64,000 nucleotides of DNA, from IMG/VR virus record IMGVR_UViG_3300042935_001404; one strand, given 5' to 3'. Source of the stretch: a virus. Its lineage: Duplodnaviria; Caudoviricetes. The notes under the pieces were generated by a model that searched no databases, was not told the origin of the DNA, and saw nothing but the letters and a program-made list of their open reading frames with translations. Shown here in pieces: positions 11,044 through 56,529 of this stretch (its first letter is position 1; the number at the start of each line of letters is the position of its first letter). A program made the position numbers and the translations under genes.

Positions 11044-11051
11044 ACAAATAT

Positions 11052-11354
11052 TTATAACCCATTTAGAATTTTATTAGTTTCGGGTTGAACAAGATTGGCC
11101 ACAGCACCAACATCTACCACAAAGTCTATGTCGCGAATTTCGTCATCTAATTCTGCAAGGGTACGAGTCAACATCACCTCAATCTCATCCACACTCATAC
11201 CTTGCTTTTGCAGTGTAGACAAGTTAAACGTCTTCTGACGACCGCCGTGAAATTTAAGAATTACTTTCTTGATACATTCTAACGGTACATCAGTTTTGGA
11301 TACGTCGGCAATAATGTGTTCCCAAGCAGTCAGGAAGTCTTTATTGTGTTCCAT
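11052..11354 (-). CDS. Hypothetical phage protein
   Basis: Intact ORF; start refined to MEHNK. Confidence 0.65.
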   Translation of the reverse strand: MEHNKDFLTAWEHIIADVSKTDVPLECIKKVILKFHGGRQKTFNLSTLQKQGMSVDEIEVMLTRTLAELDDEIRDIDFVVDVGAVANLVQPETNKILNGL

Positions 11355-18909: not shown

Positions 18910-19416
18910 TTAACTGTTTAGGACTTTGGCAACCGAATTCATCACTGCGGCAATACGTCCAATATCACGAAGCTGTTCTACTGTGTAGCCTTCTTGCTTG
19001 AGTGTTTCGTAATGTGCCTTAACACAGAAGTGGCACCGGCCAACAATACTTGCGGCCAAACTAAATGCTTCAAAGTTTGATTTGGTAGTTCCACCATGTG
19101 ATGCAATAGCGTTCATGCGTAACTGTGCTGGCAGTCCTTTTAGAGCAGGATCATCAGCCATTTCAATGTAAGGATACCACACATTGTTCTGTGCCATGAT
19201 GCTGGCAGCAGTCATTGCTGACTCTGCGTGTACCGGAGCATCTGCTAAAATTACTGATAGGATCTTTCCGTTACCAGTTGCGGCCAATGCGGCCACGGCA
19301 CAACCCATAGCCACATCTGCATCTAATGTACTACGCAAAAGTACTGCATCAAGATTTAACTTGGTGTCCTTTGCGTAGTCTGGCAATGCACCTTTGACGG
19401 CGTCGATGAAACTCAT
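18910..19416 (-). CDS. ahpD: Alkyl hydroperoxide reductase AhpD
   Basis: LPDYAKDTKLNL, MAQNNVWY, GRCHFCVKAH (CxxC-H). Confidence 0.93.
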   Translation of the reverse strand: MSFIDAVKGALPDYAKDTKLNLDAVLLRSTLDADVAMGCAVAALAATGNGKILSVILADAPVHAESAMTAASIMAQNNVWYPYIEMADDPALKGLPAQLRMNAIASHGGTTKSNFEAFSLAASIVGRCHFCVKAHYETLKQEGYTVEQLRDIGRIAAVMNSVAKVLNS

Positions 19417-20105
19417 TATTTTCTATCTCCAAACAGTTGTAACAGATTGATAAACAAGTTGATAAAGTCCATGTACAAAGTCAATGCTCCGCGAATTTCT
19501 GCCGAGTCACTGGTTTCTACTGACAGTTCTTCACGAATCTTCTGTGTGTCGTAAGCAGTTAATCCCAGAAAGATAATGATAGCCAGTGCGGAGATCACCA
19601 TCTGCATCACGGTGCTGCCAATAAAGATGTTAACAATACTGGCAATCACGATGGCAATTAAGCCAACAAACATGAACTTGCCCATGCTGTCTAGACTTTG
19701 TTTGGTAAAGTAGCCATAGCCACTCATTACTGCAAACAAGATGCCTGCACCCATAAATGCTGACACAATACTACCCATAGTGAACACAGCAAAGATCATG
19801 GAAAAACTCAAGCCCATTAAGGCCGCAAATCCATGCAAGCATAACTGTGCTACGCCTTTGCTGGGATTATTACCTAGCACATAGCTGACACCAAAGATGG
19901 CCGCAAGTGGTGAAAAGATCACAATCCATTTTATCCAACCTGTAAAAAAGAATGCCAGTAACTCTGGACTAGATCCCACAAAGTAACTCACAAACATTGA
20001 TACAATCACAGCAAGACTCATGTGTCCATACACACGGCCCATTGCTGAATTAATTTCGCTGGCAGAACGATATGCAATTCCACCTGTATAACTTGTTCCA
20101 AACAT
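19416..20105 (-). CDS. Bax inhibitor-1/YccA family membrane protein
   Basis: Seven hydrophobic helices; AYDTQKI and GALTLYMDFINLF. Confidence 0.92.
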   Translation of the reverse strand: MFGTSYTGGIAYRSASEINSAMGRVYGHMSLAVIVSMFVSYFVGSSPELLAFFFTGWIKWIVIFSPLAAIFGVSYVLGNNPSKGVAQLCLHGFAALMGLSFSMIFAVFTMGSIVSAFMGAGILFAVMSGYGYFTKQSLDSMGKFMFVGLIAIVIASIVNIFIGSTVMQMVISALAIIIFLGLTAYDTQKIREELSVETSDSAEIRGALTLYMDFINLFINLLQLFGDRK

Positions 20106-20115
20106 GATTTTCTCC

Positions 20116-20739
20116 TTAAAATTTACCTGATGCCAATACGATTTGACAAATATGTTCTAATCGTTCAATGTGTTCAAATGCCCGCCACGGGCTTGTATCA
20201 ATGGCCACAACTCCGTGACCTTTGATGCCTACGATGTCAAAACCAATTGTGCCATCTTTTCTTAGCCAGAGATTTTCATGACAACGGTCTGCAAGCTCTT
20301 GACTGATAGGAGGTACATCTCCTACGTTCTTGGCCACTCGAGTATATCTACTTAGTTCTGGAAAGTCATCAACTATAGTGCTCAAGTCAATGCCGGCGTG
20401 CATAGCAGCCACACAGTATGTAGGATGTAAATGAACCACTACTCTAACATCAGTGCTGTGCTGACCCATTGCTCGTTGTAGGCCAAAATGTAGAGGAATT
20501 TCTCCGCTGGGCTTGAGATTGGCACTGATATCAGAGTAAGGCTCTTCTTTCCATGCCAAACTGCTTACAATCTTGATCTTCTTGAACTGGTCAGGTTGCA
20601 TGGTCTGCTTACGAACGCCACTGGGTGTGATATAAAAGTGATCACGGTCGTGATGACGAATGCTCACATTGCCATCACGACTGGTAATCCAGTTGCGTCT
20701 ATATGCTTCAACCAGTGTGTCGCATATAGTTTCTAACAT
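20116..20739 (-). CDS. Class II aldolase/adducin family protein (FucA/MtnB-like)
   Basis: DGNVS, ITPSG, KPSGEIPLH, VVHLHP, GHG. Confidence 0.88.
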   Translation of the reverse strand: MLETICDTLVEAYRRNWITSRDGNVSIRHHDRDHFYITPSGVRKQTMQPDQFKKIKIVSSLAWKEEPYSDISANLKPSGEIPLHFGLQRAMGQHSTDVRVVVHLHPTYCVAAMHAGIDLSTIVDDFPELSRYTRVAKNVGDVPPISQELADRCHENLWLRKDGTIGFDIVGIKGHGVVAIDTSPWRAFEHIERLEHICQIVLASGKF

Positions 20740-21278
20740 TACAGTGTCTCGCCACCAACTGTACGGTTACAAGCACAAAGCTCGCCAGTTTGTAGTGCAT
20801 CCAATACACGAAGTGTTTCTTCTGGGCTACGACCAACGTTCAAGTTGTTGACAGTAACGTGTTGGATAACGTTCTCTGGGTCAACAATGAATGTGGCACG
20901 AAGTGCGGCGCCTGCTGGAGCATAGAACACGCCCAACTGTTCAATCAAACTCAACTCACCACGCTGTGTGTCAGCATACTGGTGATGGGTGATCTTCTTT
21001 AGATCTGCGTGTGCTGTTTGCCATGCTACTTTGCAGAACTCATTGTCTGTGCTACCAGTGAGCAGGACTGCATCACGGTCAGCAAAGTCTTGTGTTAGTT
21101 TGTCGTAGGCTACGATTTCTGTAGGGCAAACGAATGTAAAGTCTTTTGGATAGTAAACGATTACTTTCCACTTGCCTTCAAAACTTGTTTCAGTGATGGT
21201 ATAGAAAGCGTCTTCTGGTTGTCCGGGCTTAACGCCTGTGACTGCAAATGGGGCTAATTTGTCGCCAACTGTTTTCAT
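20739..21278 (-). CDS. ahpC: Peroxiredoxin AhpC
   Basis: YYPKDFTFVCPTE, LRATFIVDP, GRSPEETLRVLDALQTGELC. Confidence 0.96.
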   Translation of the reverse strand: MKTVGDKLAPFAVTGVKPGQPEDAFYTITETSFEGKWKVIVYYPKDFTFVCPTEIVAYDKLTQDFADRDAVLLTGSTDNEFCKVAWQTAHADLKKITHHQYADTQRGELSLIEQLGVFYAPAGAALRATFIVDPENVIQHVTVNNLNVGRSPEETLRVLDALQTGELCACNRTVGGETL

Positions 21279-21382
21279 AATATCTCCTTTGTGTTGAATG
21301 AAAATGTTTGCAGAAGTTTTTCTGCATGTGTATATTGTACAGTTATTTACATGAGAAATCGACCATCTCTCATGGTTTCTAC

Positions 21383-21419
21383 TGAATATATTTCTATGGC
21401 AGCCATAGAAAAAATCAAT
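21383..21419 (-). promoter_or_regulatory. Candidate OxyR box upstream of ahpC
   Basis: ATTG-N7-CTAT-N7-ATAG-N7-TTCA versus consensus ATAG-N7-CTAT-N7-ATAG-N7-CTAT; TACAAT -10 at 21334-21339. Confidence 0.5.
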
Positions 21420-21424
21420 AAAGA

Positions 21425-21444
21425 AAACCCGCTAAAGCGGGTTT
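21425..21444 (-). terminator. Intrinsic terminator after the porin gene
   Basis: AAACCCGC-TTTA-GCGGGTTT followed by TCTTTT. Confidence 0.75.
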
Positions 21445-21464
21445 GAAATCTACGTTGTGTTAAA

Positions 21465-22490
21465 TCAGAAACTATGTGACAATCCAATGTAACTAGCTGT
21501 ACCTATGTTTGCAGTATCGGCTGCACCAGCGGCAGTTACAGCTTGCTTGGTATCTGATAAAAACGCTTCAAGTTTAGTACGCTTGCTGAAAGAATACACT
21601 GCGCGAACGCCTGTAACACCCTTCTTAGTGTTGGCAGCACCATTGGCACCAATGTTTACATTGTTAGACAACTTAGACAAAGACACATCTAACTTGGCAT
21701 TAACTGGAACTTTAATGCCGTACTCAGTTGACTTATGAGCTGCCATAGAAGTCAAATTGTCTTTTTGATTCATTTGGTTAACTGCAACTTCTGCAAATCC
21801 AAAATTGTAAGCGGCGTTGATAGTTTGCAACTTTTCAGCATTGAGACCAGTGATATTAGCAACTTGAGCTTTTAATCCTCCTGCTGAATAGTTAACACCA
21901 ATGACGTTCACATCATTCATCAACGTTGCTGTGGTTGTAGTGGCAAAACCATTGCCAGGGACCACTACATATTTGTTATGTCTGCCCTTGGCGTTTAATA
22001 AAAATACCTCTGCACCAGCAATCTTAGGCGAAGTGTATTGCACTTGTGCAGAATTGCGACCATAATTCAAGCCAGAATGGGTACCTTTAGACCAGTCTTG
22101 CATATAATGGCCGGCACCGTTTGTGCTGACCAACTGAGTAGAGAAACGACCTAATTTAACATTGCCGAACTTGCTATCCACAAAAATATTAGACTGTTCC
22201 CACAATTGAGTGTTGGCGTCACCAGTTGATGAATTAGCATATGACCCTTGTGCACCAGTTTCGGAACTAAAACGATTTTGTAAAAAAATACCAACTTTGG
22301 TACCACCGCCTAAGTCTTCAGCGGCACTAAAGTTTAAATAATTACGGTCACCTTTGGCAGCGCCAACGGTAGTAACTCCGGCAGCAGACCTTGCTACACC
22401 ATATTGAACCTGACCAGAAATTGTCACGGTTGATTGTGCAAGGACAGCAGTAGATACAGTCAATGCTAAGATTGCGAAGATTTTCTTCAT
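21465..22490 (-). CDS. Gram-negative general porin (Burkholderiales type)
   Basis: Signal peptide MKKIFAILALTVSTAVLA, VTISG, AAEDLGGG, YSFSKRT, C-terminal IGLSHSF. Confidence 0.9.
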   Translation of the reverse strand: MKKIFAILALTVSTAVLAQSTVTISGQVQYGVARSAAGVTTVGAAKGDRNYLNFSAAEDLGGGTKVGIFLQNRFSSETGAQGSYANSSTGDANTQLWEQSNIFVDSKFGNVKLGRFSTQLVSTNGAGHYMQDWSKGTHSGLNYGRNSAQVQYTSPKIAGAEVFLLNAKGRHNKYVVVPGNGFATTTTATLMNDVNVIGVNYSAGGLKAQVANITGLNAEKLQTINAAYNFGFAEVAVNQMNQKDNLTSMAAHKSTEYGIKVPVNAKLDVSLSKLSNNVNIGANGAANTKKGVTGVRAVYSFSKRTKLEAFLSDTKQAVTAAGAADTANIGTASYIGLSHSF

Positions 22491-22623
22491 TAGTTTTTCC
22501 TTTAGATTAAATTAAAATCAACAGATTGTCGACTTTATCAACAGACTGTCGATATAATATTTAGTCACGCAACATGATCCCTGACTTTTTGTCAACGAAA
22601 TCCATCAAAAATAGAGGTTCTGC

Positions 22624-23943
22624 TTATTGAGATCTTAACCACTGAATTAGTCGTCGATGTAAATTATAAAGTTTTTTACTAGATCCTGGATCTTGTTTTA
22701 ATATTTTTTTTCGTATCGCTCTTCGAAATATGCCACGTGGTTTTTTGACGAGTCGAAATGCATCTATAAAATTTGTTTTTAATTCTTCAATTACCTGTTG
22801 TTGAAATGCATCGCTAAAAAAATGTTTTTTGTTAAAATCCGCTATGCGTCTAATTTCTAGTAAAAATTGATCAAACTCCGGTGCGCCAAGAGAATTAATT
22901 TTATTCAGGCTGTTGATAATTTTTTCAAGTCTTAACAAACTATTTGTCTCTTGATCATAACTTTCGTCAATCCAAGGAGCAAATGTTCGAAATCCGTAAC
23001 TTCTTAGATATTCTAAACTATGCGGGCCTGCTGCCAACACAAATGGATGTCCGCAGGCAATTGGTCTCAGTATCTTTTCTGTCAAGTGAATTCTTGAGTC
23101 GTCAAATATAGTTTCCAAAACTACACTTATTGCAGTTGAATTAAAATCATCATGATTGTACTGTGCGCTTTCGTTGCTGTCACTGTGATTGTCTTCAAAC
23201 AGATCTAGTACAGTGCTGTCTTTGAGCGCAAAATTAATATTTTTAAATTTGTGGTCCCGGTAATGATACCCTTGATCGCCTTCGGACCGTCTTGATATAC
23301 TGATTTTACTTTGTTCATGCAATCCATGTTTGACCAACAACTCTATAAACTTTAATCTGTATTCTCTAGTGTTGCCCCAGGCACGATTGTATATTAGGAA
23401 TTTTTTACAAACTTGAGATTGCGTTGTTAGCCGAGTATCTATCTCGGCAAATCTATACCAGTCACGAGCAATAATTGCATGGCACCAATAATAAACTGGT
23501 AAAAAATTATTTTGAGAATACTGTTCTAAGTCAACAGAATTTTTTTCAGAATGCAGTAAAATTGCCTGTTCATAAAGAGATCCACACAACAATGGTATTG
23601 ACAATAAATTTTTATCAACCGCCGCTTGACTACTTATTTTGGCCACAGTGGGTTCGTTTAATGCAATGTGTAATGACACAGGATCAATATTTGTATAAAA
23701 ATTATAATGCAATGGCTCTTGGTCGTGTGCAACAACTGGAATGTTAATAAAATATGTTAGGCCGTCAACACCATTGGCGCCAAGAGCAGTCAATGCATCA
23801 AGATCAGTTAATGTATCAATATCAGTCAATGGTCTGAGGTCAGAAATATCTTTACTACCGTGAGGATAAAATCTGTAAAATGCTGTCGGAACAGGTATAA
23901 TCGATTGCACCCAGTGGTACAAATTGTCTAAGGGAATGTTCAT
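22624..23943 (-). CDS. Putative GT-B/GT10-like glycan-modifying protein, paralog 3
   Basis: ISVVLETIF...HLTEKILRPIACGHPFV...LRSYGFRTF...DESYD. Confidence 0.55.
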   Translation of the reverse strand: MNIPLDNLYHWVQSIIPVPTAFYRFYPHGSKDISDLRPLTDIDTLTDLDALTALGANGVDGLTYFINIPVVAHDQEPLHYNFYTNIDPVSLHIALNEPTVAKISSQAAVDKNLLSIPLLCGSLYEQAILLHSEKNSVDLEQYSQNNFLPVYYWCHAIIARDWYRFAEIDTRLTTQSQVCKKFLIYNRAWGNTREYRLKFIELLVKHGLHEQSKISISRRSEGDQGYHYRDHKFKNINFALKDSTVLDLFEDNHSDSNESAQYNHDDFNSTAISVVLETIFDDSRIHLTEKILRPIACGHPFVLAAGPHSLEYLRSYGFRTFAPWIDESYDQETNSLLRLEKIINSLNKINSLGAPEFDQFLLEIRRIADFNKKHFFSDAFQQQVIEELKTNFIDAFRLVKKPRGIFRRAIRKKILKQDPGSSKKLYNLHRRLIQWLRSQ

Positions 23944-23970
23944 GCCATTGGATTTTGTCTTTGAATAAAA

Positions 23971-24003
23971 GGTAATTTAATTCTGTTACGAGGATAAATT
24001 ACC
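23971..24003 (-). terminator. 3' hairpin/terminator of the tmRNA coding piece
   Basis: GGTAATTTA/TAAATTACC 9-bp stem followed by TTTT. Confidence 0.6.
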
Positions 24004-24280
24004 AAAAACCCTAGGCAGTGTTTAGACTGCCAATGCTTCCTTGGCTGTACGAGCAGAGAACTTGACGTTCTTACCAGAAACAGTTACGGTTTTGTTTACG
24101 TTTGCATTTACGTTTTTTGCTTGATTAACGGTCATCGCCTACCGTGCTGTCCACTTGTTTACTTGTTGCCCTGTCGAATCTAGTGCTCCCCCACCTAAAT
24201 ATACTGAATACATTTAGGTGGAGGAGGGGGGATTCGCACCCCCGTCCAAGACACTTTTCTCTTTGCTTCATACAGCAATA
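23971..24280 (-). ncRNA. ssrA: Circularly permuted (two-piece) tmRNA
   Basis: Acceptor piece (~24280-24217, T-arm GGGGG-TGCGAAT-CCCCC then CTCCTCC-A-CC) precedes a 24-nt spacer and the coding piece starting GGGGGAG-CACTAGATTCGAC (24192); G3.U70 pair; tag 24105-24022 ANVNKTVTVSGKNVKFSARTAKEALAV* with the stop codon in a hairpin loop. Confidence 0.92.
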
Positions 24281-24285
24281 ACTCT

Positions 24286-24293
24286 TATTTATA
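24286..24293 (-). promoter_or_regulatory. T4-type late promoter TATAAATA upstream of tmRNA
   Basis: Exact octamer about 6 nt before the acceptor piece. Confidence 0.6.
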
Positions 24294-24295
24294 AT

Positions 24296-24370
24296 TGGTT
24301 GCGGGGGAAGGACTCGAACCTCCGGCTTCCAGGTTATGAGCCTGGCGGTCTACCACTGACGTACCCCGCG
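24296..24370 (-). tRNA. tRNA-fMet(CAT), initiator-like
   Basis: C1:A72 mismatch, loop CT-CAT-AA; anticodon stem ends AGG/CCT rather than GGG/CCC. Confidence 0.88.
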
Positions 24371-24376
24371 ATAAAT

Positions 24377-24466
24377 TGGCGGAAGCGGTGAGATTCGAAC
24401 TCACGAGGGACGTTGATCCCTGCTGGGTTAGTAATCCAGTGCCATCGGCCACTCGGCCACGCTTCC
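24377..24466 (-). tRNA. tRNA-Ser with ACT anticodon
   Basis: Long variable arm, G73, loop TT-ACT-AA, A31:C39 mismatch. Confidence 0.85.
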
Positions 24467-24476
24467 TGCAGTTGTT

Positions 24477-24710
24477 TTATGGCAAAATTTCGCTAGATAC
24501 CACACCAGGTTGTGTGGCCGCCCAGTTCGTATATTCAGTTGCTTTCTCAAGTGTGGGCCATGTTCTTTCCCATATTGTATCACCGTTTTCGAGAGTTGTA
24601 AATGTTGGGAACTCACCCACGCCGTTTGGCCATGCTAAAGATATAAGAACATCTCTTGCCTCATTTGTCAATGAGGTTCCTGCTTCCACAACTATTTTTG
24701 TTTTAATCAT
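24477..24710 (-). CDS. Small hypothetical protein
   Basis: AGGA SD; stops 10 nt before tRNA-Ser. Confidence 0.6.
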   Translation of the reverse strand: MIKTKIVVEAGTSLTNEARDVLISLAWPNGVGEFPTFTTLENGDTIWERTWPTLEKATEYTNWAATQPGVVSSEILP

Positions 24711-24739
24711 AATATTTTCCTATAAAAAATCAAAGTATG

Positions 24740-25240
24740 CTAGAATTTTTCATTAACTTTAGCACGATAACTAGCAGTTGATAACCCTTTAAATCGATCT
24801 GCCGCATAACTGGCAGCAAATGCATTGGGTTTAACTGATGGCGTCACATTACATGTTCCTTTAATGTAGCCAACAGCCTGTGATATCACACAGCTCGACC
24901 CGTATTTATCGTCAGGATTGATATCTAAGTGCACCTCAACATGACGATTTTCCAACACTTCGCCCAATTTCAAATACAGTTCAGATACTTTGTAAACTTC
25001 ATTCATCAGGCGCATGCTTGGACGCGATGTTTTTTGATCAAAGTCCCGTTCGCGGTGTACTTCTCCAAACAGTTTGCAACCGTTGTTGCCGTTGATATGC
25101 ACCACAATGGCCACCACGTAGTCAGCATACCAAACACCGTTTACACGATGACGTTCTGAGTCACACCCAAGATAAATCTTAGTCTCAGGAGTTTGTTCTT
25201 CAATGAACCTTTTTACTTTAACAAGATTTATCTTTTCCAT
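24740..25240 (-). CDS. RNase H-like YkuK (DUF458) family protein
   Basis: KIYLGCDS, RLMNEV, EVHLDIN, FAASYAAD. Confidence 0.85.
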   Translation of the reverse strand: MEKINLVKVKRFIEEQTPETKIYLGCDSERHRVNGVWYADYVVAIVVHINGNNGCKLFGEVHRERDFDQKTSRPSMRLMNEVYKVSELYLKLGEVLENRHVEVHLDINPDDKYGSSCVISQAVGYIKGTCNVTPSVKPNAFAASYAADRFKGLSTASYRAKVNEKF

Positions 25241-25252
25241 AATATTTTACCT

Positions 25253-25337
25253 TGGTGCGGATGGAGAGATTCGAACTCTCACGATTTTACTCGCTGGAAC
25301 CTAAATCCAGTGCGGCTACCAATTACGCCACATCCGC
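25253..25337 (-). tRNA. tRNA-Leu(TAG)
   Basis: Class II cloverleaf, loop TT-TAG-GT. Confidence 0.95.
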
Positions 25338-25348
25338 ATTGTTTTTAT

Positions 25349-26284
25349 TTATTGACCGAGTTTTGTTGCAAATGATTCAAACATATGGTCCATGGTTTTG
25401 ATATTTTGCAAATCTAATTTGTAGTCACCAGACTTGCTGACCAGATGTTTTTGAACCAAGTCAGGCATGGCCAGTTTGATTGCTTGATTCAGATCCTTGA
25501 CAACTTGATCTCGCACTTCTCGGGGAGTGTCTTTTCTTATAAAGAAACTGTATCCTGCCACTAAGTTTTGGTAATCAGAGAATCCGGGACTTGTTAAATT
25601 AGGCAAATCTGGAAAGTCAGTTGACTTTTTGTTGTCAAACACAAACAGCGGTGTTAGTGTTCCGGCAGTGATGTGTTGATTAACATTGCCGTAGCTGATA
25701 ACAGCAAAGTCAAGTTGATTGTTTAAAATATCTACAATCACCTGAGGTATACTTTTGTAGTTGACCAAAATTCCGTTGACTTTCATCTTGTCTATGGCTA
25801 ATGATCCGTAAATGTGAAGAGGACTTCCTGTTATAGTGCTACCATATGTTAGTCCTTTTTGTTTGCCTAGTTCTGCCAGATCATTGAGATTCTTGATGTT
25901 TCTTTTGCTGTTGGTAACCAATACCCATTGTGGAGAATAGAAATGTGATACCGGTTCGAAATGCCGTTCGTAATCAAATCCTGTTGACGGTTTTGCACTG
26001 GCATAGGCAGTTGATGCGTAGAACAAAATTGTATGGCCATCGGCCGGGGCCGACAAGACATGTTGAGACGCTATGGCAGCGGCCCCACCTGGTTTGTTCA
26101 TTACCACGACACCGGATTTCCAGATCCCGTCTAGTTTTTCTGCCACAGTTCTTGTGATAAGATCAAGTCCACCGCCTGCTCCTGTGGGAACAATTAGTTG
26201 TACAGGTTTCTCAGGAAACGCTGATACAGAGACACTAACACTCATAACAAGTGCGGTTAATAATGTTGATACAATTTTCTTCAC
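25349..26284 (-). CDS. Bug/TctC tripartite tricarboxylate transporter substrate-binding protein
   Basis: Signal peptide, FPEKPVQLIVPTGAGGGLD, NKPGGAAAIA, APADGHTIL. Confidence 0.9.
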   Translation of the reverse strand: MKKIVSTLLTALVMSVSVSVSAFPEKPVQLIVPTGAGGGLDLITRTVAEKLDGIWKSGVVVMNKPGGAAAIASQHVLSAPADGHTILFYASTAYASAKPSTGFDYERHFEPVSHFYSPQWVLVTNSKRNIKNLNDLAELGKQKGLTYGSTITGSPLHIYGSLAIDKMKVNGILVNYKSIPQVIVDILNNQLDFAVISYGNVNQHITAGTLTPLFVFDNKKSTDFPDLPNLTSPGFSDYQNLVAGYSFFIRKDTPREVRDQVVKDLNQAIKLAMPDLVQKHLVSKSGDYKLDLQNIKTMDHMFESFATKLGQ

Positions 26285-27693: not shown

Positions 27694-27744
27694 TTGTTTC
27701 CTTTGGGGTATTTATTTGGGTTAAATTGCGATATAAATATCTGT

Positions 27745-27930
27745 ATGCAAACGCAAACACAAGATTTTATTTCAGTTAGTGGACATCTACAAGTGCATCT
27801 GTCACTCAGTGAGTATAACACATCTTATATTTTTGTCAATGATATTTTCAATGATCGGCTAATTATGCGTTACTTTGGTGATCATGAATCTGCAGTCAAC
27901 TGGATCAAGACTCTTAAAGACCACTATTGA
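27745..27930 (+). CDS. 61-aa hypothetical protein on the opposite strand
   Basis: Preceded by TATAAATA at 27732-27739. Confidence 0.5.
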   Translation: MQTQTQDFISVSGHLQVHLSLSEYNTSYIFVNDIFNDRLIMRYFGDHESAVNWIKTLKDHY

Positions 27931-28338: not shown

Positions 28339-29073
28339 TCAGTCGAAGTAGTATTCGAGATCAGAGAGACCGACCACGTTAGAATAATCTAAGCCGTGTA
28401 TGTAAGACTCGCGACGCAAGTCATTTCCGGGCACCAAGTCTCGGCGAATGTGTGTCAGTTCCATACATCCAAAAACGCCATCAGTGTCATAGCTCACGTG
28501 ATTGTTGCCGTGTACGTGTACAATGGCATAGTGCTCTTGCCACCGCTCCACAGCCTGGTGCCATTGTTTGCTACGATTGGCACAGTTGTGCCATTCCATT
28601 GCAACGCCTACAATGCGATCGCGATGTTGTACGATGCTTTCAATCAAACTGTATTCACCACCTTCGATGTCCATCTTGATGAACACCTGGTCTACGCCCA
28701 TTCTGTCTAGGGCCCGAACAAAATTTTCTGGCCCAATAAACTCTGGCCAATGTTTTACGTTATCTTGAAAGAATTCATCGTACATGGCTCGAATATCCAA
28801 GTGTCCACGAACCGGCGTATTGATGCTGATACGCATGGTATCTCTAGTGACACTGGCATCATACATCTGAATCGGATCTGTAGGTTTGAGATTATGCCAG
28901 TCTTGATCAAATGTAAAATCGTCACCTAGTCCAAAACTTAACAGACCCTGTGCTTGGTCCACTGCTGAACGTGGCAAAATGTAGCCGCCGTCCATTTTTC
29001 CACCTAATCTAATTAGGTCAGGCACTGCAACAGGGCAGAGCCAATGTAGTTCTTGGGGTAGTTTAATTTTCAT
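28339..29073 (-). CDS. FkbM-like SAM-dependent methyltransferase
   Basis: RLGGKMDGGY, LLSFGLGDDFTFD, FIKMDIEGGEY, HVHGNN. Confidence 0.75.
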   Translation of the reverse strand: MKIKLPQELHWLCPVAVPDLIRLGGKMDGGYILPRSAVDQAQGLLSFGLGDDFTFDQDWHNLKPTDPIQMYDASVTRDTMRISINTPVRGHLDIRAMYDEFFQDNVKHWPEFIGPENFVRALDRMGVDQVFIKMDIEGGEYSLIESIVQHRDRIVGVAMEWHNCANRSKQWHQAVERWQEHYAIVHVHGNNHVSYDTDGVFGCMELTHIRRDLVPGNDLRRESYIHGLDYSNVVGLSDLEYYFD

Positions 29074-29101
29074 AATTTTATTTATTAACTGGTTTTACAC
29101 A

Positions 29102-32217: not shown

Positions 32218-32307
32218 TGGCGGTGCGACTCGGATTCGAACCGAGAACCCGGATTACGCCGAGCGACAGATTAGCAATCTGCTCTAATACCATTATAGGA
32301 CCACACC
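32218..32307 (-). tRNA. tRNA-Ser(GCT)
   Basis: Class II cloverleaf, loop TT-GCT-AA, G73. Confidence 0.93.
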
Positions 32308-47206: not shown

Positions 47207-47813
47207 GGGGAGTTATTGTGATTTGTTCTATCTTGTATTTAATAGCAGTTGCAATGGCCTCAGCAATATCTGCAGGTGTCAGTGCAGGACCTTTGGCATA
47301 GAGTTTTTCAATTTCATCTGGGGTTTTTGCACCTTGATAATTTTGTTTTAACATATTGCTACGTATTTTACCAGGCCTGATTTCTGTAAAGAGCACGTTG
47401 GGATACTGTTTCTTCACTGTATTCATACTGTAATGCAATGCGGCCTTGGCGGCAGTGTAGAATATGTTATACACAATAGGATCATCAATGTTACTGCTGG
47501 TGATATAAATGAAATGTCCGGTGGCACGTTGCTGAACATATTGCTTGGCCAACAGCAATGCGCCTGTGAAGTTTACATCAACTTGATTTTGCTGATTTTG
47601 CCAGGTGTTATCTTGCCAGCCCCGGAACGCACCTACATTAGCACCGGCACAGTTAATAACAATGTCGTATGGAGATAGATCCAATTGATCTATTGCTTCA
47701 AAATTGGATAAATCTAGTTCGTTCCTTGTTGGCGCTGTAATTGTGTGTTGGCCAAACAGTTTGACACATGCTTGACCGACACCAGAACTACCGCCGGTGA
47801 TGAATATGTTCAC
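47193..47813 (-). CDS. Short-chain dehydrogenase/reductase
   Basis: ITGGSSGVG, INCAG, VNF, YTAAK (YxxxK), PG. Confidence 0.88.
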   Translation of the reverse strand: MNIFITGGSSGVGQACVKLFGQHTITAPTRNELDLSNFEAIDQLDLSPYDIVINCAGANVGAFRGWQDNTWQNQQNQVDVNFTGALLLAKQYVQQRATGHFIYITSSNIDDPIVYNIFYTAAKAALHYSMNTVKKQYPNVLFTEIRPGKIRSNMLKQNYQGAKTPDEIEKLYAKGPALTPADIAEAIATAIKYKIEQITITPHDKS

Positions 47814-48316
47814 GCAAACAGATCCTCATTCCATTCACGATGACCTTCACGGAAAGCCATGTTAGCTTGTGTCTCACGTACTTCTACTCGATAGCACCAC
47901 AAACGAGCTGCCTCTCCTGGACCCCACATTTCGGGAATGTACACTCCATTCACATACTTGTACAACATGTCACTGAGTCCTTCGCAGCCTAGGCGAGGTA
48001 ATACTACAACCTTGGCCATTTTCTTTTCCACTAACAAGTTGTATGTGGCCATTTCTGGATCATCCGCTGCCACAATTAGTGTATGATCAAATTGGTCTTC
48101 TAATGTCTTTTTAAGTTCTTTAAGTCCACCGTAATCAGCGGCCCAGTTGCGAACATCCAGTTCATTGGTACCAAAGTAAAATTTCATACTGAATGAATAT
48201 CCATGTATCAAATTACAATGACTGTCTGCCCTCCACTGTCTATACGCACATGGAAATGCGTCGTGATACTCTTTAGTACTTGTATATTTGTAAACTACGG
48301 GATTTAATGTTGTCAT
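47810..48316 (-). CDS. queD: 6-carboxy-5,6,7,8-tetrahydropterin synthase
   Basis: CNLIHGYSF, DYGGLK, FDHTL, CEGLS, VEVRET. Confidence 0.85.
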   Translation of the reverse strand: MTTLNPVVYKYTSTKEYHDAFPCAYRQWRADSHCNLIHGYSFSMKFYFGTNELDVRNWAADYGGLKELKKTLEDQFDHTLIVAADDPEMATYNLLVEKKMAKVVVLPRLGCEGLSDMLYKYVNGVYIPEMWGPGEAARLWCYRVEVRETQANMAFREGHREWNEDLFA

Positions 48317-50767: not shown

Positions 50768-51086
50768 GGTCTAAGTGCTGTAGTTTATCTGGTACATTGG
50801 TCCATTTTTCATGGTCTGGCAGTGGTGCCTTACTTTTGGTAATAACAGGCCATAGCTTTGCCAGCTCAGCATTGATAGCTATAAATGCCCGTTGCGTTTC
50901 CGGAACATCCTCTTCAGCATAAATTGCATTTACTGGACATTCTGGAACACATACTGCACAGTCAATGCATTCGTCTGGATCAATGGCCAAAAAGTTTGGT
51001 CCTTCGACAAAACAATCTACCGGGCATACATCAACACAGTCTGTGTGTTTGCATAAAATGCAGTCGTCAGTTACAACATAGGTCAT
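50754..51086 (-). CDS. fdxA: 7Fe ferredoxin (FdxA type)
   Basis: [25 protein letters not shown]...[12 protein letters not shown]. Confidence 0.96.
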
Positions 51087-51913
51087 CTTGGAGCAAAGTC
51101 CTGTTGTAATTTAATATTGTCAAAAAACTCTTTCTTTGTACTTTGATCTGTGTTAAACGCACCTTTAAGCACAGTGGTCTGTGTTAGACTACTGTGTGCC
51201 ATAATGCCGCGATTCTCGCAACATCCATGTACTGCTTGAATATAAACACCAACGTCTGTGGCATCTGTGGCTCGCATTATTTCGCGGGCAATGTCATTAG
51301 CAAGTTCTTCTTGTAGTGTGCCACGACGAGCACACCACTGAGCAATACGAGTGTACTTGCTAAGGCCAATGAGCTTTTGAGCGGCAATAATCCCGATATA
51401 AGCAACGCCACTGACAGGTTGGTGGTGATGACTGCACATACTGCGAAGCTCACTACGCACCACAAGCATTCCTTCATATCGATCCGCTGAGTCATTTGGG
51501 AAAGCGGTTGCATCTGGTTCTGGTTCATATCTACCTGCCATAATTTCGTTAAAATACATTTTAGCAAGACGTCTTGCTGTGCCTTTTGAGTTGGGATCTG
51601 TTTCACGATCAATCAGCAATCGATCCAGCACTGTTTCAAATGCTTCTGCGGCTTCGTCAATTAGTTGTTCTACATCACCTTGGTGCAGGTAGTCACTGAC
51701 GTTATCGCCTGCCCAGAAACGTTTGTTGTCACGTTTCATCTTGAAGCGAATAGCATCGCCTAGGTAACCTTCTTGGTAATCTTTGTCTGACATAATTTCA
51801 GTTGCTGTTGTAATTGTGGATGATTCCGTGGCATTGTTGCCAAAGCGGTCTGGTGTAAATTTCTTTTTAGTATCCGAGTGAAACACTGGATCTGGTGCAA
51901 ATTCTTTTTTCAA
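51083..51913 (-). CDS. folE: GTP cyclohydrolase I
   Basis: [33 protein letters not shown]. Confidence 0.96.
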
Positions 51914-54946: not shown

Positions 54947-55399
54947 TTAAATTTTAATGTTAAGATTGGGACGAGAAATTTCATATTTGATCAAAGCGCC
55001 GTTCTCGCCATCCTCGGCCACTTCAATCCACACTGCACGGTCAGGATACCGAGCGGCAATTTGTAAGTACAGATCATCGCTGATCATTTCACAACTCTTA
55101 AAGTTCAGTTCCAGTGTTCCGCCTGCGTAGAGATTCTCTAGCCAGCGTTTAAACTGAATAAATTCAATGTCACGATCGTTGTGAAATACATTAATCCAAA
55201 CACGGAAATGAAAGATATGTCTATGCGGCACGCCAAGAAAGCTGACATCATACTCGTCACCTGTGGCCAATGCAGGATCATCTGCGGCAGCCGGATACTT
55301 GTGGATGCCTTCTTTGCGGAATGTGATCCAGATTTTTCTTTCTGCCTGGTTCATGATTCTAATAGATTGTTCTACCAGTGCCTGTTCTCTTTGTGTCAT
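54947..55399 (-). CDS. Second QueD-like T-fold protein
   Basis: EGIHKYP, HRHIFHF, DRDIEF, SCEMI, IEVAEDGENGA. Confidence 0.75.
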   Translation of the reverse strand: MTQREQALVEQSIRIMNQAERKIWITFRKEGIHKYPAAADDPALATGDEYDVSFLGVPHRHIFHFRVWINVFHNDRDIEFIQFKRWLENLYAGGTLELNFKSCEMISDDLYLQIAARYPDRAVWIEVAEDGENGALIKYEISRPNLNIKI

Positions 55400-56529
55400 A
55401 AATTACTCTCTATAGATTTATATACGTCGGGGAAAAGTTGTCTACTATTTAGATTTCTGCGATCATCAATGTTTTTTAATGCGTCAACAAATGTTACACT
55501 AATTTGTTCAGTATTTGCAAGACTTTTGACAACATTTTGATAACCAGTTATATTGGAATAATCTTTTTGTTGCATACGCTCAATCACTTGATTTCGGTAC
55601 TCAACACTTAGACCTTGAGGATCAAATGGTCCAGGACCTGTACCGTTATGGTATACTGTTAATGAAGCTGTTTGGAGTCGGAATCCTTGATCACGTAACC
55701 AATCAATTGTGTTCCAAACTGACATTGCATTCAAAGAGAGAAAAACCATATTAAACGAAATACAATGTAACGGAACGTCACGTTTGAGTTGCAAAAGATT
55801 ATTTTCAAACTCTGTCCATTTGCCCGGCCAACGCAGGTACTCGTATTCGACACCAGTAGCATCAAAACTAACCAACCATCTTACATTAGTCATGTTAATC
55901 AAACGTTGGTAAATCTTAGTATCGGTATTCAGTAAATTTGTATTAATTAAAAGTTTACAATCAGGATTGCGAACAGCAAGTTCATCAAGTAATAGTTCGT
56001 TTTCCTTCATTAGCAGCGGTTCGCCGCCAGCTAAGTACACTTCTTTTAAAGATTCTACGTTGTCTAGCACGTATTTCAAAAAATTGTTTTTGTCTCTGCG
56101 CTCAATTTTAATAGTGCGCCCAAGTTCTTGTGCCCACAGCGAACTAACAGTAGGATGACAATACACACAGGCCAGGTTACAAGTATTACTCCATCGTGCA
56201 TCTAAATACCTAAGATCAAACGTCCCAACTTGATATATAGAATCATCCTTGTTAGGAAAATTCTGTAGCATGTTTACTTGCAGGGTATTTAGTCCGCCAT
56301 CTATTCCGCCATGACACCAAGCACAACCAGGCACAACCTGATCGTTCAACATACTACGTTGAATGTTAATATTGGTTGGACCAGTTAGCATTTCCGCAAC
56401 CGAATCAACTTCATCTAAATTGCCAAGATTGTTGCGGCCAACACAACAGTTATCTACTCGTCCACTAGGTTCAACATAGACACTAATCCATGGCGCCGGA
56501 CAAAAATTCTTATTGCCGGGATCGATCAT
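55396..56529 (-). CDS. Radical SAM protein with SPASM/Twitch domain
   Basis: FCPAPW, CAWC, SNTCNLACVYC, YLAGGEPLL, INTN. Confidence 0.88.
   Translation of the reverse strand: MIDPGNKNFCPAPWISVYVEPSGRVDNCCVGRNNLGNLDEVDSVAEMLTGPTNINIQRSMLNDQVVPGCAWCHGGIDGGLNTLQVNMLQNFPNKDDSIYQVGTFDLRYLDARWSNTCNLACVYCHPTVSSLWAQELGRTIKIERRDKNNFLKYVLDNVESLKEVYLAGGEPLLMKENELLLDELAVRNPDCKLLINTNLLNTDTKIYQRLINMTNVRWLVSFDATGVEYEYLRWPGKWTEFENNLLQLKRDVPLHCISFNMVFLSLNAMSVWNTIDWLRDQGFRLQTASLTVYHNGTGPGPFDPQGLSVEYRNQVIERMQQKDYSNITGYQNVVKSLANTEQISVTFVDALKNIDDRRNLNSRQLFPDVYKSIESNL

What the first reader, a model, noticed from the sequence alone, without database searches (positions are those of the whole stretch)
23971..24293. 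Circularly permuted two-piece tmRNA in a phage, behind a T4-type late promoter
Seen: the 3' half (T-arm and acceptor, ending CTCCTCC-A-CC at 24217) comes before the 5' half (GGGGGAG at 24192), joined by a 24-nt spacer inside a CCACCTAAAT/ATTTAGGTGG hairpin. G3.U70 alanine identity is intact; cross-piece helices AGGGCA/TGTCTT and ACAGCA/TGCTGT are present; CCA is not fully encoded; TATAAATA lies just upstream. Known: two-piece tmRNAs occur in Alphaproteobacteria, marine picocyanobacteria and some Betaproteobacteria, and the phage tmRNAs I know of are one-piece. Whether a permuted phage copy has been reported needs checking.
Basis: partly seen in the sequence, partly recalled or inferred. Interest (0 to 1): 0.8.

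Follow-up and report, generated by a model that had tools for sequence, protein, structure and literature searches.

The report
Phage two-piece tmRNA, long tag
A giant lake-water phage carries a real back-to-front (two-piece) gene for tmRNA, the RNA that frees stalled ribosomes. Such phage genes are already known and common; this one is unusual mainly for its 27-residue tag.

Summary
On the minus strand, 24280-23968, lies a circularly permuted tmRNA gene (ARAGORN tmRNA*; Rfam tmRNA_permuted 129.9 bits, cut-off 47; beta_tmRNA 96.5 bits). The G3:U70 pair, discriminator A, a 24-nt spacer hairpin, both cross-piece helices and an incomplete CCA are all present. Compensatory changes in sister phages and in 115 related genes show the fold is under selection.

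The promoter reading holds in a relaxed form. Exact TATAAATA is not enriched. But ATAAATA sits directly upstream of gene starts in this lineage, complete relatives encode a gp55-type late sigma factor, and homologous tmRNA genes carry either ATAAATA or a sigma-70 -10 box at the same distance.

It is not new as a kind. Phage two-piece tmRNAs were reported in 2022, Rfam has a model, at least 99 IMG/VR contigs carry homologues, and this scan has flagged such genes on other DNA (571 notes, at least 421 genomes).

The specific features are:
- a clade-restricted 27-residue, Lys-rich tag ending ALAV;
- a mosaic tRNA-like domain;
- no SmpB in complete relatives;
- a phage-encoded ClpX, ClpA-like protein and two ClpP in the complete relative with the same tag.

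Verdict: new member of a known kind, modest interest.

The parts
24286..24293 (-). TATAAATA, a candidate -10 element of a T4-late-type (gp55-type) promoter. A start 6 nt downstream would fall at about 24280.
   Evidence: for the motif. Searches show ATAAATA is tied to gene starts. One search finds gp55 homologues in relatives. One search shows a -10 element at the same distance in homologous genes. No start site has been mapped.
24217..24280 (-). Acceptor piece (about 64 nt): 3' strands of the two cross-piece helices (24277-24272, 24253-24248), T arm (24243-24227), acceptor 3' strand (24226-24220), discriminator A at 24219, CC at 24218-24217. The terminal A is not encoded.
   Evidence: Rfam alignment, cofold and fold, covariation. 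The 5' end is inferred from the promoter position. The 3' end is inferred from tRNA rules.
24193..24216 (-). Intervening sequence of 24 nt, removed on maturation. Together with ACC and the GGU before G1 it extends the acceptor stem into a 19-bp hairpin in the precursor.
   Evidence: It is the shortest among 115 related genes, which range 24-197 nt with a median of 89.
23968..24192 (-). Coding piece: acceptor 5' strand GGGGGAG (24192-24186), D-loop-like UAGAUUCGAC, 5' strands of the cross-piece helices (24172-24167, 24150-24145), a hairpin in place of pseudoknot 1 (about 24144-24129), the tag frame and the 3' hairpins.
   Evidence: The 3' end is inferred from the terminator-like hairpins.
24022..24105 (-). 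Tag reading frame: resume codon GCA (24105-24103), 27 codons giving ANVNKTVTVSGKNVKFSARTAKEALAV, stop UAA (24024-24022).
   Evidence: ARAGORN. The frame is kept in five sister contigs, with four synonymous third-position changes and two conservative changes, V/L/I and T/S.
24004..24031 (-). Hairpin GGCAGU/ACUGCC with the stop codon in its loop, followed by a U run. It is terminator-like and resembles tmRNA helix 5.
   Evidence: Nearly invariant in the five aligned sister sequences, with one change in L124.
23964..24004 (-). Second hairpin, GGUAAUUUA/UAAAUUACC (24004-23971), followed by UUUUAUU. This is the likely 3' end of the coding piece.
   Evidence: Invariant in the five aligned sister sequences. 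About 85% conserved in tmRNA genes of other viral contigs.
24296..24370 (-). tRNA-Met(CAU) immediately upstream, shown for context. With tRNA-Ser(ACU) it forms the conserved order tRNA-Ser, tRNA-Met, tmRNA, 439-aa ORF.

Best explanation
This is a functional, phage-borne, beta-type two-piece tmRNA (ssrA) gene. It sits in the tRNA island of a freshwater jumbo myophage of about 350-480 kb, whose DNA polymerase is closest to those of Phosso, Atu_ph07 and Rak2/121Q-like jumbo phages.

Likely mechanism, step by step:
1. Transcription starts about 24280, just downstream of an ATAAATA-type -10 element read by a phage gp55-type sigma factor. Read-through from the upstream tRNA genes is also possible. 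Transcription ends at the two hairpins around 24031-23964. (Inferred.)
2. The precursor folds so that the acceptor stem is extended by the 24-nt spacer hairpin. (Shown by folding.)
3. Host RNase P cuts 5' of G24192, and 3' trimming followed by the CCA-adding enzyme finishes ...ACC to ...ACCA. This leaves an acceptor piece of about 64 nt and a coding piece of about 190-225 nt. They are held together by the acceptor stem and two cross-piece helices. (Inferred from Caulobacter two-piece tmRNA.)
4. Host AlaRS charges it through G3:U70 and A73. Host SmpB and EF-Tu deliver it to stalled ribosomes, since no smpB is found in the complete relatives. (Inferred.)
5. Translation resumes at GCA and adds a 27-residue tag ending ALAV. 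(Frame conservation shown; tagging inferred.)

The pay-off for the phage is probably to keep ribosomes free while messages are being degraded, and to send unfinished proteins to Clp proteases. The complete relative with the same tag encodes its own.
For: - Detectors: ARAGORN calls a permuted tmRNA. Rfam RF04321 scores 129.9 bits against a cut-off of 47, and RF01850 scores 96.5 against 84.
- Fold: z = -5.57 with the expected T arm, acceptor plus spacer helix and P2 helix. Cofolding of the two pieces recovers the trans acceptor stem.
- Covariation among sister phages: acceptor GGGGGAG/CUCCUCC, GGGGGUG/CACCUCC and GGGCCUG/CAGGUCC; T stem GGGGG/CCCCC against GCGGG/CCCGC; P2 UGUCUU/AGGGCA against GAUUCAA/UUGGGUC.
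- Covariation across 115 related genes: pair 6:67 is U-A, A-U or C-G, and G3:U70 is kept in 114.
- Synteny: tRNA-Ser, tRNA-Met, tmRNA, 439-aa ORF is kept in four of the five sister contigs, and L124 by alignment. The tag frame is preserved with mostly synonymous or conservative changes.
- Promoter: 9 of 11 ATAAATA sites in the window lie just upstream of a gene, tRNA or tmRNA start. In the complete relative G002, 31 of 57 sites lie within 25 nt upstream of an ORF start. The figure is 4-16% for 19 of the 20 same-composition words (29% for the overlapping TAAATAA), and 1 of 57 in reverse orientation.
- Late sigma: gp55 family phrog_234 is present in G002, G005, Phosso and Atu_ph07.
- Shared 5' end: homologous tmRNA genes have TATAAT or ATAAATA ending 5-7 nt before the same ATTGCTG.
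- Partners: no SmpB in five relatives, two of them complete, and none among window ORFs of 150 aa or more. ClpX, a ClpA-like protein and two ClpP are encoded in G002.
- RNA libraries: lake metatranscriptome contigs cover the clade-specific tag end and hairpins.
Against: - There is no direct evidence of transcription start, processing, alanylation or tagging. The RNA-library contigs cannot show ends or strand, and DNA carry-over is possible.
- Exact TATAAATA is not enriched. The first base of the motif differs in two sister phages: CATAAATA and AATAAATA.
- The pseudoknot-1 region is reduced to a hairpin in the window.
- The tag lacks the usual acidic ANDExF core and ends in V rather than A, so its value as a degron is uncertain.
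- Only 64 kb of this phage was available. The absence of smpB and the presence of gp55 and Clp genes are read from relatives, not from this genome.
Confidence: 0.85

Rival explanations
1. It is a decoy rather than a rescuer. The phage RNA would mainly soak up host SmpB, or compete with host tmRNA, to blunt host trans-translation or a tmRNA-dependent host response. Its tag would be of little consequence. Mycobacteriophage DS6A, which carries only the tRNA-like domain, is a precedent.
For: No phage smpB is found, so it must draw on host SmpB. The DS6A tRNA-like-domain-only form is reported to resemble a strong tmRNA inhibitor (PMC4131195). The tRNA-like domain is swapped among sister phages, as expected if binding to a host factor is the selected trait.
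Against: The resume codon, open frame and stop-in-hairpin are intact. They are kept in all six IMG/VR contigs with this tag, with synonymous or conservative changes. A pure decoy would not need them.
Confidence: 0.07
2. It is a passenger or remnant: a host ssrA copy picked up by chance, or an attachment-site fragment, with no role in infection.
For: tmRNA genes are common integration sites, and fragments occur in prophages (PMC9004378). The gene type (beta) and the ANDExFALAA tags of relatives resemble bacterial two-piece genes.
Against: The gene is complete, not a fragment. It is conserved in position in sister phages, including a complete 347-kb genome, and shows compensatory changes. It has its own promoter-like and terminator-like signals. 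Bacterial genes sampled share only 70-75% identity over the tRNA-like domain. No recombinase-like Pfam domain was found among the window ORFs of 150 aa or more.
Confidence: 0.03
3. It is not driven by a late promoter. The tmRNA would simply be the last gene of a long tRNA-island transcript, and the TATAAATA between tRNA-Met and tmRNA would be an AT-rich spacer or processing signal.
For: tRNA-Met ends 2 nt before the motif with no terminator between them. Exact TATAAATA is at chance level. The motif is imperfect in two sister phages.
Against: ATAAATA is associated with gene starts in an orientation-specific way. In L124 the motif is duplicated on both sides of an inserted ORF. Other phages place a clear sigma-70 promoter at the same spot before the same 5' end.
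Confidence: 0.3

Closest known systems
Two-piece tmRNA of Betaproteobacteria (Rfam RF01850 beta_tmRNA; Sharkady and Williams 2004) and the merged model RF04321 tmRNA_permuted (PMC11915505)
   Same: Same gene order: acceptor piece, spacer, coding piece. Same tRNA-like domain with G3:U70, same trans P2 helices and same resume context UAAAU-GCA-AAC. Both models score above their cut-offs. More distant phage relatives carry beta-like tags such as ANDEQFALAA. Some bacterial beta genes also lack the encoded A of CCA.
   Different: Carried by a phage. It shares only 70-75% identity with the sampled bacterial beta genes over the tRNA-like domain. The tag is 27 residues, Lys-rich and ends ALAV, instead of about 10 residues ending LAA. 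The 3' part of the beta model is not matched.
Caulobacter crescentus two-piece tmRNA (Keiler, Shapiro and Williams 2000, cited in PMC9004378 and PMC11915505)
   Same: The same principle: one precursor is cut by tRNA-processing enzymes into two base-paired RNAs that work in trans-translation.
   Different: Caulobacter's is the alpha type and chromosomal, shown experimentally and paired with the cell's own SmpB. Here nothing has been tested experimentally, and no smpB is found in the complete relatives.
Two-piece ssrA of Methylophilales phage Melnitz and related aquatic myophages (Buchholz et al. 2022, PMC9004378)
   Same: A phage-borne permuted tmRNA in an aquatic myophage. That paper counted 53 two-piece forms among 133 distinct phage tmRNAs, 50 of them from aquatic phages.
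   Different: Melnitz's gene is alpha-like, sits behind an early promoter and carries a glutamine riboswitch. The window's gene is beta-like and sits behind an ATAAATA-type motif. No riboswitch was found by Rfam.
tmRNAs of huge phages (Al-Shayeb et al. 2020, PMC7162821) and the unannotated permuted tmRNA of cultured Sinorhizobium jumbo phage Phosso (PV764938.1, 349596-350198)
   Same: Jumbo or huge phages with large tRNA sets and a tmRNA. Phosso's DNA polymerase is the closest cultured match at 51%, and Phosso has an RF04321 hit of 113 bits.
   Different: Al-Shayeb et al. also report SmpB among huge phages, but none was found in the relatives here. The Phosso gene is not annotated, ARAGORN finds no tag in it, and it is not close in sequence.
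One-piece phage tmRNAs (mycobacteriophage Bxz1 group, Bacillus phage G) and the DS6A form with only the tRNA-like domain (PMC4131195)
   Same: Phage-carried ssrA relatives that depend on host SmpB.
   Different: Those are standard-order genes or lack a tag frame. The window's gene is permuted and has a long tag.

Membership tests
Circularly permuted (two-piece) tmRNA, Rfam RF04321 / RF01850 | Score above the curated covariance-model threshold | tested here: met
   RF04321 scores 129.9 bits (cut-off 47). RF01850 scores 96.5 bits (cut-off 84). ARAGORN calls tmRNA*.
Circularly permuted (two-piece) tmRNA, Rfam RF04321 / RF01850 | tRNA-Ala-like domain: 7-bp acceptor stem with G3:U70, discriminator A, 5-bp T stem with a 7-nt loop | tested here: met
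   Read directly from the sequence, with fold z = -5.57. G3:U70 is kept in 114 of 115 related genes.
Circularly permuted (two-piece) tmRNA, Rfam RF04321 / RF01850 | Permuted order: the 3' acceptor half lies upstream of the 5' half, joined by an intervening sequence | tested here: met
   The acceptor 3' strand at 24226-24220 precedes G1 at 24192. The spacer is 24 nt.
Circularly permuted (two-piece) tmRNA, Rfam RF04321 / RF01850 | Trans helices (P2) joining the two pieces, supported by covariation | tested here: met
   UGCUGU/ACAGCA and UGUCUU/AGGGCA are present. The latter is replaced by GAUUCAA/UUGGGUC in L122 and L124. A third 4-bp model helix is not formed in the window.
Circularly permuted (two-piece) tmRNA, Rfam RF04321 / RF01850 | Tag frame with an Ala resume codon and a hydrophobic C-terminal degron (typically ...LAA) | tested here: inconclusive
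   The resume codon GCA and an open 27-codon frame are present and conserved. But the tag ends ALAV and lacks the ANDExF core. Whether it is a degron could not be tested.
Circularly permuted (two-piece) tmRNA, Rfam RF04321 / RF01850 | Maturation into two RNAs, alanylation, and SmpB-dependent tagging | not testable with these tools
   Only assembled RNA-library contigs were available, and they cannot show ends.
T4-type late promoter (gp55-dependent, TATAAATA at -10, no -35 element) | TATAAATA or NATAAATA about 6 nt upstream of the transcript start | tested here: inconclusive
   The motif lies at 24293-24286 and the structured RNA starts at 24277. Homologous genes place a -10 element at the same distance. 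No start site has been mapped.
T4-type late promoter (gp55-dependent, TATAAATA at -10, no -35 element) | The motif recurs upstream of many genes in the genome | tested here: met
   Met for the relaxed motif ATAAATA only. In the complete relative G002, 31 of 57 sites lie within 25 nt upstream of ORF starts. The figure is 4-16% for 19 of the 20 same-composition words (29% for the overlapping TAAATAA), and 1 of 57 in reverse orientation. In the window it is 9 of 11. The exact 8-mer is not enriched.
T4-type late promoter (gp55-dependent, TATAAATA at -10, no -35 element) | A gp55-type late sigma factor encoded by the phage | tested here: inconclusive
   phrog_234 is found in complete relatives G002 and G005 (E about 6e-23) and in Phosso and Atu_ph07. 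The window's own genome beyond 64 kb was not available. gp33 and gp45 were not searched.

The most novel reading that the evidence does not exclude
The clade-specific 27-residue, Lys-rich tag ending ALAV may not be an ordinary host degron. It could be a phage-tuned handle that evolved together with the phage's own ClpX, ClpA-like protein and two ClpP, all present in the complete relative that has the same tag. Proteins tagged during infection would then go to a phage-controlled protease, or be kept away from the host's. The system might also be wired to the stop-less mini-gene that another note of this scan reports in the same tRNA island.
Probability: 0.12. Interest if true: 0.65.

Novelty: new member of a known kind. 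Interest (0 to 1): 0.3.

Why it matters
As a kind it adds little. Phage-borne two-piece tmRNAs are published, modelled in Rfam, and abundant in freshwater viral contigs.

What this case adds is detail that could be used experimentally:
- One widespread phage tmRNA gene appears behind different promoter classes (sigma-70-type or ATAAATA-type) at the same 5' end. This suggests different phages time ribosome rescue differently.
- Close sister phages keep the tag-coding half nearly unchanged but swap the tRNA-like half. That is a natural experiment on matching host AlaRS, SmpB and RNase P.
- One small clade of jumbo phages has stretched the tag from 10 to 27 residues and changed its last residue. 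The complete relative with the same tag carries its own Clp protease set but no SmpB.

If the long tag changes the fate of tagged proteins, it would show a phage re-programming protein quality control and not merely boosting it.

Tried and rejected
- **Close cultured relative.** None in INPHARED by DNA; only tRNA-Met matched.
- **The window's own assembly.** Not held, so smpB, gp55 and Clp genes could only be sought in relatives.
- **Exact TATAAATA as a genome-wide late promoter.** Rejected: 5 against 3.0 expected in the window, and 8 in 347 kb of G002 against 17 for the reversed control.
- **The T-arm and acceptor motif as a lineage marker.** Rejected: in bacterial species genomes it occurs mostly in one-piece tmRNAs of many phyla, with 88 of 94 calls one-piece.
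- **Host identification.** The porin and Bug/TctC homologues point only weakly to Burkholderiales, at 28-33% identity to the named bacterial proteins. The host remains unknown.
- **Permuted tmRNA in that order.** In 151 sampled genomes of that GTDB order, only 3 had strong permuted tmRNA hits. This says the form is rare there, not which host is used.
- **RNA evidence.** Four lake or river metatranscriptome runs gave only assembled contigs. They cover parts of the gene, and many come from other tmRNAs that share conserved segments. No ends, strand or processing can be read, and uncovered parts mean nothing.
- **A short ...ALAV tag in IMG/VR.** The only extra match was the C-terminus of an ordinary protein gene.
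- **Other searches with no match.** Lon protease and a CCA-adding enzyme in the relatives. A riboswitch like Melnitz's: Rfam found only tRNAs and the tmRNA in the window.
- **Complex prediction.** Not used, because the tag is shorter than the 30 residues the tool needs.

Full report
**1. What is there**

The region reads as a tmRNA gene on the minus strand.
- ARAGORN reports a permuted tmRNA at 23931-24308 with the tag ANVNKTVTVSGKNVKFSARTAKEALAV. It also finds 24 tRNA genes between 18256 and 33269, all on the same strand.
- Rfam gives tmRNA_permuted (RF04321) at 24277-24022 with 129.9 bits (cut-off 47, E = 3.9e-25), and beta_tmRNA (RF01850) with 96.5 bits (cut-off 84).

| Element | Minus-strand position |
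|---|---|
| Acceptor 3' strand CUCCUCC | 24226-24220 |
| Discriminator A | 24219 |
| CC | 24218-24217 |
| U in place of the final A of CCA | 24216 |
| Spacer (24 nt) | 24216-24193 |
| GGGGGAG, G1 at 24192 | 24192-24186 |
| UGCUGU pairing with ACAGCA | 24277-24272 with 24150-24145 |
| UGUCUU pairing with AGGGCA | 24253-24248 with 24172-24167 |

G3 pairs with U70.

The 121-nt tRNA-like precursor folds into the T arm, an acceptor stem extended by the spacer into 19 bp, and the P2 helix. Its z-score is -5.57, and none of 200 shuffles folds as well. Cofolding the two presumed pieces recovers the trans acceptor stem.

The tag frame runs from GCA (24105-24103) to UAA (24024-24022). The stop codon lies in the loop of a hairpin followed by a U run (24031-24004). 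A second hairpin with a U tail follows at 24004-23964.

**2. The genome**

- No close cultured relative exists by DNA.
- The family-B DNA polymerase at 61060-63717 is closest to Sinorhizobium phage Phosso (469 kb, 51%). Next come Agrobacterium phage Atu_ph07 (490 kb), then Vibrio, Xanthomonas and E. coli 121Q-type jumbo myophages.
- The nearest held record is an IMG/VR fragment, G001. Two complete relatives are G002 (346,856 bp, terminal repeats) and G005 (356,865 bp).
- The stretch occurs in at least 20 lake-water or freshwater DNA runs.
- The window also encodes a Gram-negative porin, a Bug/TctC binding protein and many metabolic genes. This suggests a Gram-negative host. Burkholderiales is only a weak guess.

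**3. Evidence that the RNA is under selection**

Five sister contigs share the 439-aa downstream ORF (71-94% identity), and four keep the order tRNA-Ser(ACU), tRNA-Met, tmRNA, 439-aa ORF. L124 has the tmRNA by alignment, though ARAGORN does not call it.

In the alignment, the tag frame and both 3' hairpins are almost invariant. The tag differs by four synonymous third-position changes and two conservative replacements, V/L/I and T/S. With six changes this is only suggestive of coding constraint.

The tRNA-like half, in contrast, is mosaic and shows compensatory changes:

| Element | Window | L122, L124 | L125, L126 |
|---|---|---|---|
| Acceptor stem | GGGGGAG/CUCCUCC | GGGGGUG/CACCUCC | GGGCCUG/CAGGUCC |
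| T stem | GGGGG/CCCCC | GCGGG/CCCGC | GGGGG/CCCCC |
| P2 helix | UGUCUU/AGGGCA | GAUUCAA/UUGGGUC | as window (one G·U pair becomes G-C in L126) |
| CCA | A not encoded | A not encoded | fully encoded |
| Spacer | 24 nt | 24 nt | 101-116 nt |

The pseudoknot-1 region is a short hairpin in the window and L125, and longer in L122, L124 and L126.

Across 115 permuted genes gathered from viral contigs and bacteria, pair 6:67 is U-A, A-U or C-G, and G3:U70 is kept in 114. My selection there required six of seven pairs, so percentage paired is partly circular. The double-sided changes are not.

**4. The promoter claim**

Exact TATAAATA is at chance level. The window has 5 copies against 3.0 expected, and G002 has 8 copies against 17 for the reversed control.

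The 7-mer ATAAATA behaves differently:
- In the window, 10 of 11 copies are on the gene strand. Nine lie just upstream of a start: three ATG codons exactly 5 nt away, two ORFs with a Shine-Dalgarno leader, tRNA-Thr, tRNA-Leu, the tmRNA, and the head of the tRNA island.
- In G002, 31 of 57 copies lie within 25 nt upstream of an ORF start. The figure is 4-16% for 19 of the 20 other words of the same composition (29% for the overlapping TAAATAA) and 1 of 57 in reverse orientation. The spacings are bimodal, at 4-7 nt and 14-22 nt.
- A gp55-type late sigma factor (phrog_234) is present in G002, G005, Phosso and Atu_ph07.
- Homologous tmRNA genes in other viral contigs all begin with about ATTGCTGTATGAAGC. 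Upstream they carry either a clear sigma-70 promoter (TTGACA, 17 nt, TATAAT) or ATAAATA, with the -10 element ending 5-7 nt before that start.

So the acceptor piece most likely begins at the transcription start, and different phages have put different promoter classes there. No start has been mapped. Read-through from tRNA-Met, which ends 2 nt before the motif, remains possible.

**5. Is it new?**

No, not as a kind.
- Buchholz et al. 2022 described a two-piece ssrA in phage Melnitz. They counted 53 two-piece forms among 133 distinct phage tmRNAs, 50 of them aquatic (PMC9004378).
- Al-Shayeb et al. 2020 reported tmRNAs and SmpB in huge phages (PMC7162821).
- The tmRNA database holds 11,946 permuted sequences and 79 phage sequences, and produced RF04321 (PMC11915505).
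- A pattern for the window's T arm and acceptor strand hit more than 118 IMG/VR contigs. ARAGORN calls a permuted tmRNA in 99 of them, with tags such as ANDSRFALAA, ANDSQFALAA and ANDERFALAA.
- The window's promoter-plus-acceptor segment is 93.6% identical to that of several such contigs, which were not among the 42 loci found with the 439-aa ORF. It is closer to them than to its sister L122, at 82% overall. This points to exchange of modules between phages.
- The same motif in bacterial species genomes is almost always in one-piece genes.
- Only 3 of 151 sampled genomes of the GTDB order that holds Deefgea had strong permuted genes. These share 70-75% identity with the window over the tRNA-like domain and carry ANDExFALAA-type tags.

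The phage family is therefore beta-type, but not a near copy of any bacterial gene sampled. The cultured jumbo phage Phosso also has an RF04321 hit (113 bits) in an unannotated gap. This scan has flagged phage permuted tmRNAs many times on other DNA.

**6. What is particular here**

*The tag.*
- The long tag occurs in only six IMG/VR contigs, all of this clade.
- The more distant complete relative G005 has the canonical ANDEQFALAA.
- One lake metatranscriptome contig matches the window on both sides of the tag but replaces 65 nt with 14 nt, giving ANDEQFALAV. This is a weak observation, since the shorter side of the joint is 21 nt.
- The 27-residue tag thus looks like an internal expansion of a beta-type tag, with a change of the last residue from A to V.
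- From general knowledge, ClpX reads the C-terminal LAA. Engineered ssrA variants ending in V (AAV, ASV) are degraded more slowly. So ALAV may be a weaker or re-targeted degron. This is inference.

*The partners.*
- No SmpB was found in five relatives, two of them complete, nor among window ORFs of 150 aa or more.
- No CCA-adding enzyme or Lon protease was found in the relatives.
- G002, which has the same tag, encodes a ClpX with zinc finger (399 aa), a ClpA-like two-AAA protein (762 aa) and two ClpP.

*Compactness.* The spacer is the shortest seen (24 nt, against a median of 89). The encoded A of CCA is missing, as in 3 of 92 homologues and some bacterial beta genes.

**7. Verdict**

This is a real and almost certainly functional two-piece tmRNA gene of a freshwater jumbo phage. 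It is a new, unannotated member of a known and common kind. The late-type promoter is plausible but unproven. The long ALAV tag, together with phage Clp genes, is the only lead with some novelty.

Noticed in passing
window 11044-11056(-), 27732-27747(+), 29073-29085(-); G002 genome-wide: ATAAATA followed by exactly 5 nt and then ATG, with no Shine-Dalgarno sequence. If the motif is a gp55-type -10 box, these genes would give leaderless or near-leaderless mRNAs. In G002 the spacings are bimodal, at 4-7 nt and 14-22 nt.
   Followed up: partly
L298:13908-15107(+), L323:85-2373(+), L321:7654-8277(+), L321:3658-4233(+) (all in G002): The complete 347-kb relative with the same long-tag tmRNA encodes ClpX (zinc finger, AAA_2, D2-small), a ClpA-like protein and two ClpP paralogues, but no SmpB and no Lon.
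   Followed up: partly
PV764938.1 349596-350198 (locus L275/L282): The cultured Sinorhizobium jumbo phage Phosso has an RF04321 permuted-tmRNA hit of 113 bits in a gap with no annotated feature. ARAGORN does not call it, and the hit spans 603 nt.
   Followed up: partly
L124:2055-2640 and L126:2137-2520 (alignment A1): Two sister phages have an insert of about 580 nt and about 390 nt between tRNA-Met and the tmRNA. In L124 the insert is flanked on both sides by ATTATAAATAA, as if a gene cassette had brought or duplicated the promoter motif.
   Followed up: no
window 24145-24280 compared with L122, L125, L126 (alignment A1) and L010, L057, L109: The tmRNA is modular. The tag half is nearly identical among sisters. 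The acceptor stem with its spacer, the T arm with P2, and the pseudoknot-1 region occur in different combinations. The window's acceptor piece is closer to those of viral contigs not found with the 439-aa ORF (93.6%) than to its sister's.
   Followed up: partly
window 24377-24466(-): A tRNA-Ser with anticodon ACU directly upstream of tRNA-Met, conserved in all sister contigs. A normal tRNA-Ser(GCU) lies at 32218-32307.
   Followed up: no
window 19416-26284(-): Host-like genes are interleaved with the tRNAs: Bax-inhibitor-1 family membrane protein, class II aldolase, AhpC/TSA peroxiredoxin, Gram-negative porin, YkuK-type RNaseH_like protein (PF04308) and a Bug/TctC solute-binding protein.
   Followed up: partly
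window 47810-48316(-), 51083-51913(-), 55396-56529(-): 6-pyruvoyl-tetrahydropterin synthase family, GTP cyclohydrolase I and a radical SAM/SPASM protein. This is the kind of set used for 7-deazaguanine (queuosine-type) synthesis, here next to sugar-nucleotide enzymes, SAM synthetase and ThyX.
   Followed up: no
window 24033-24099, run X23: A lake metatranscriptome contig matches both flanks of the tag but has 14 nt in place of 65. It encodes the short tag ANDEQFALAV, a possible intermediate between canonical ...ALAA tags and the 27-residue ...ALAV tag.
   Followed up: partly
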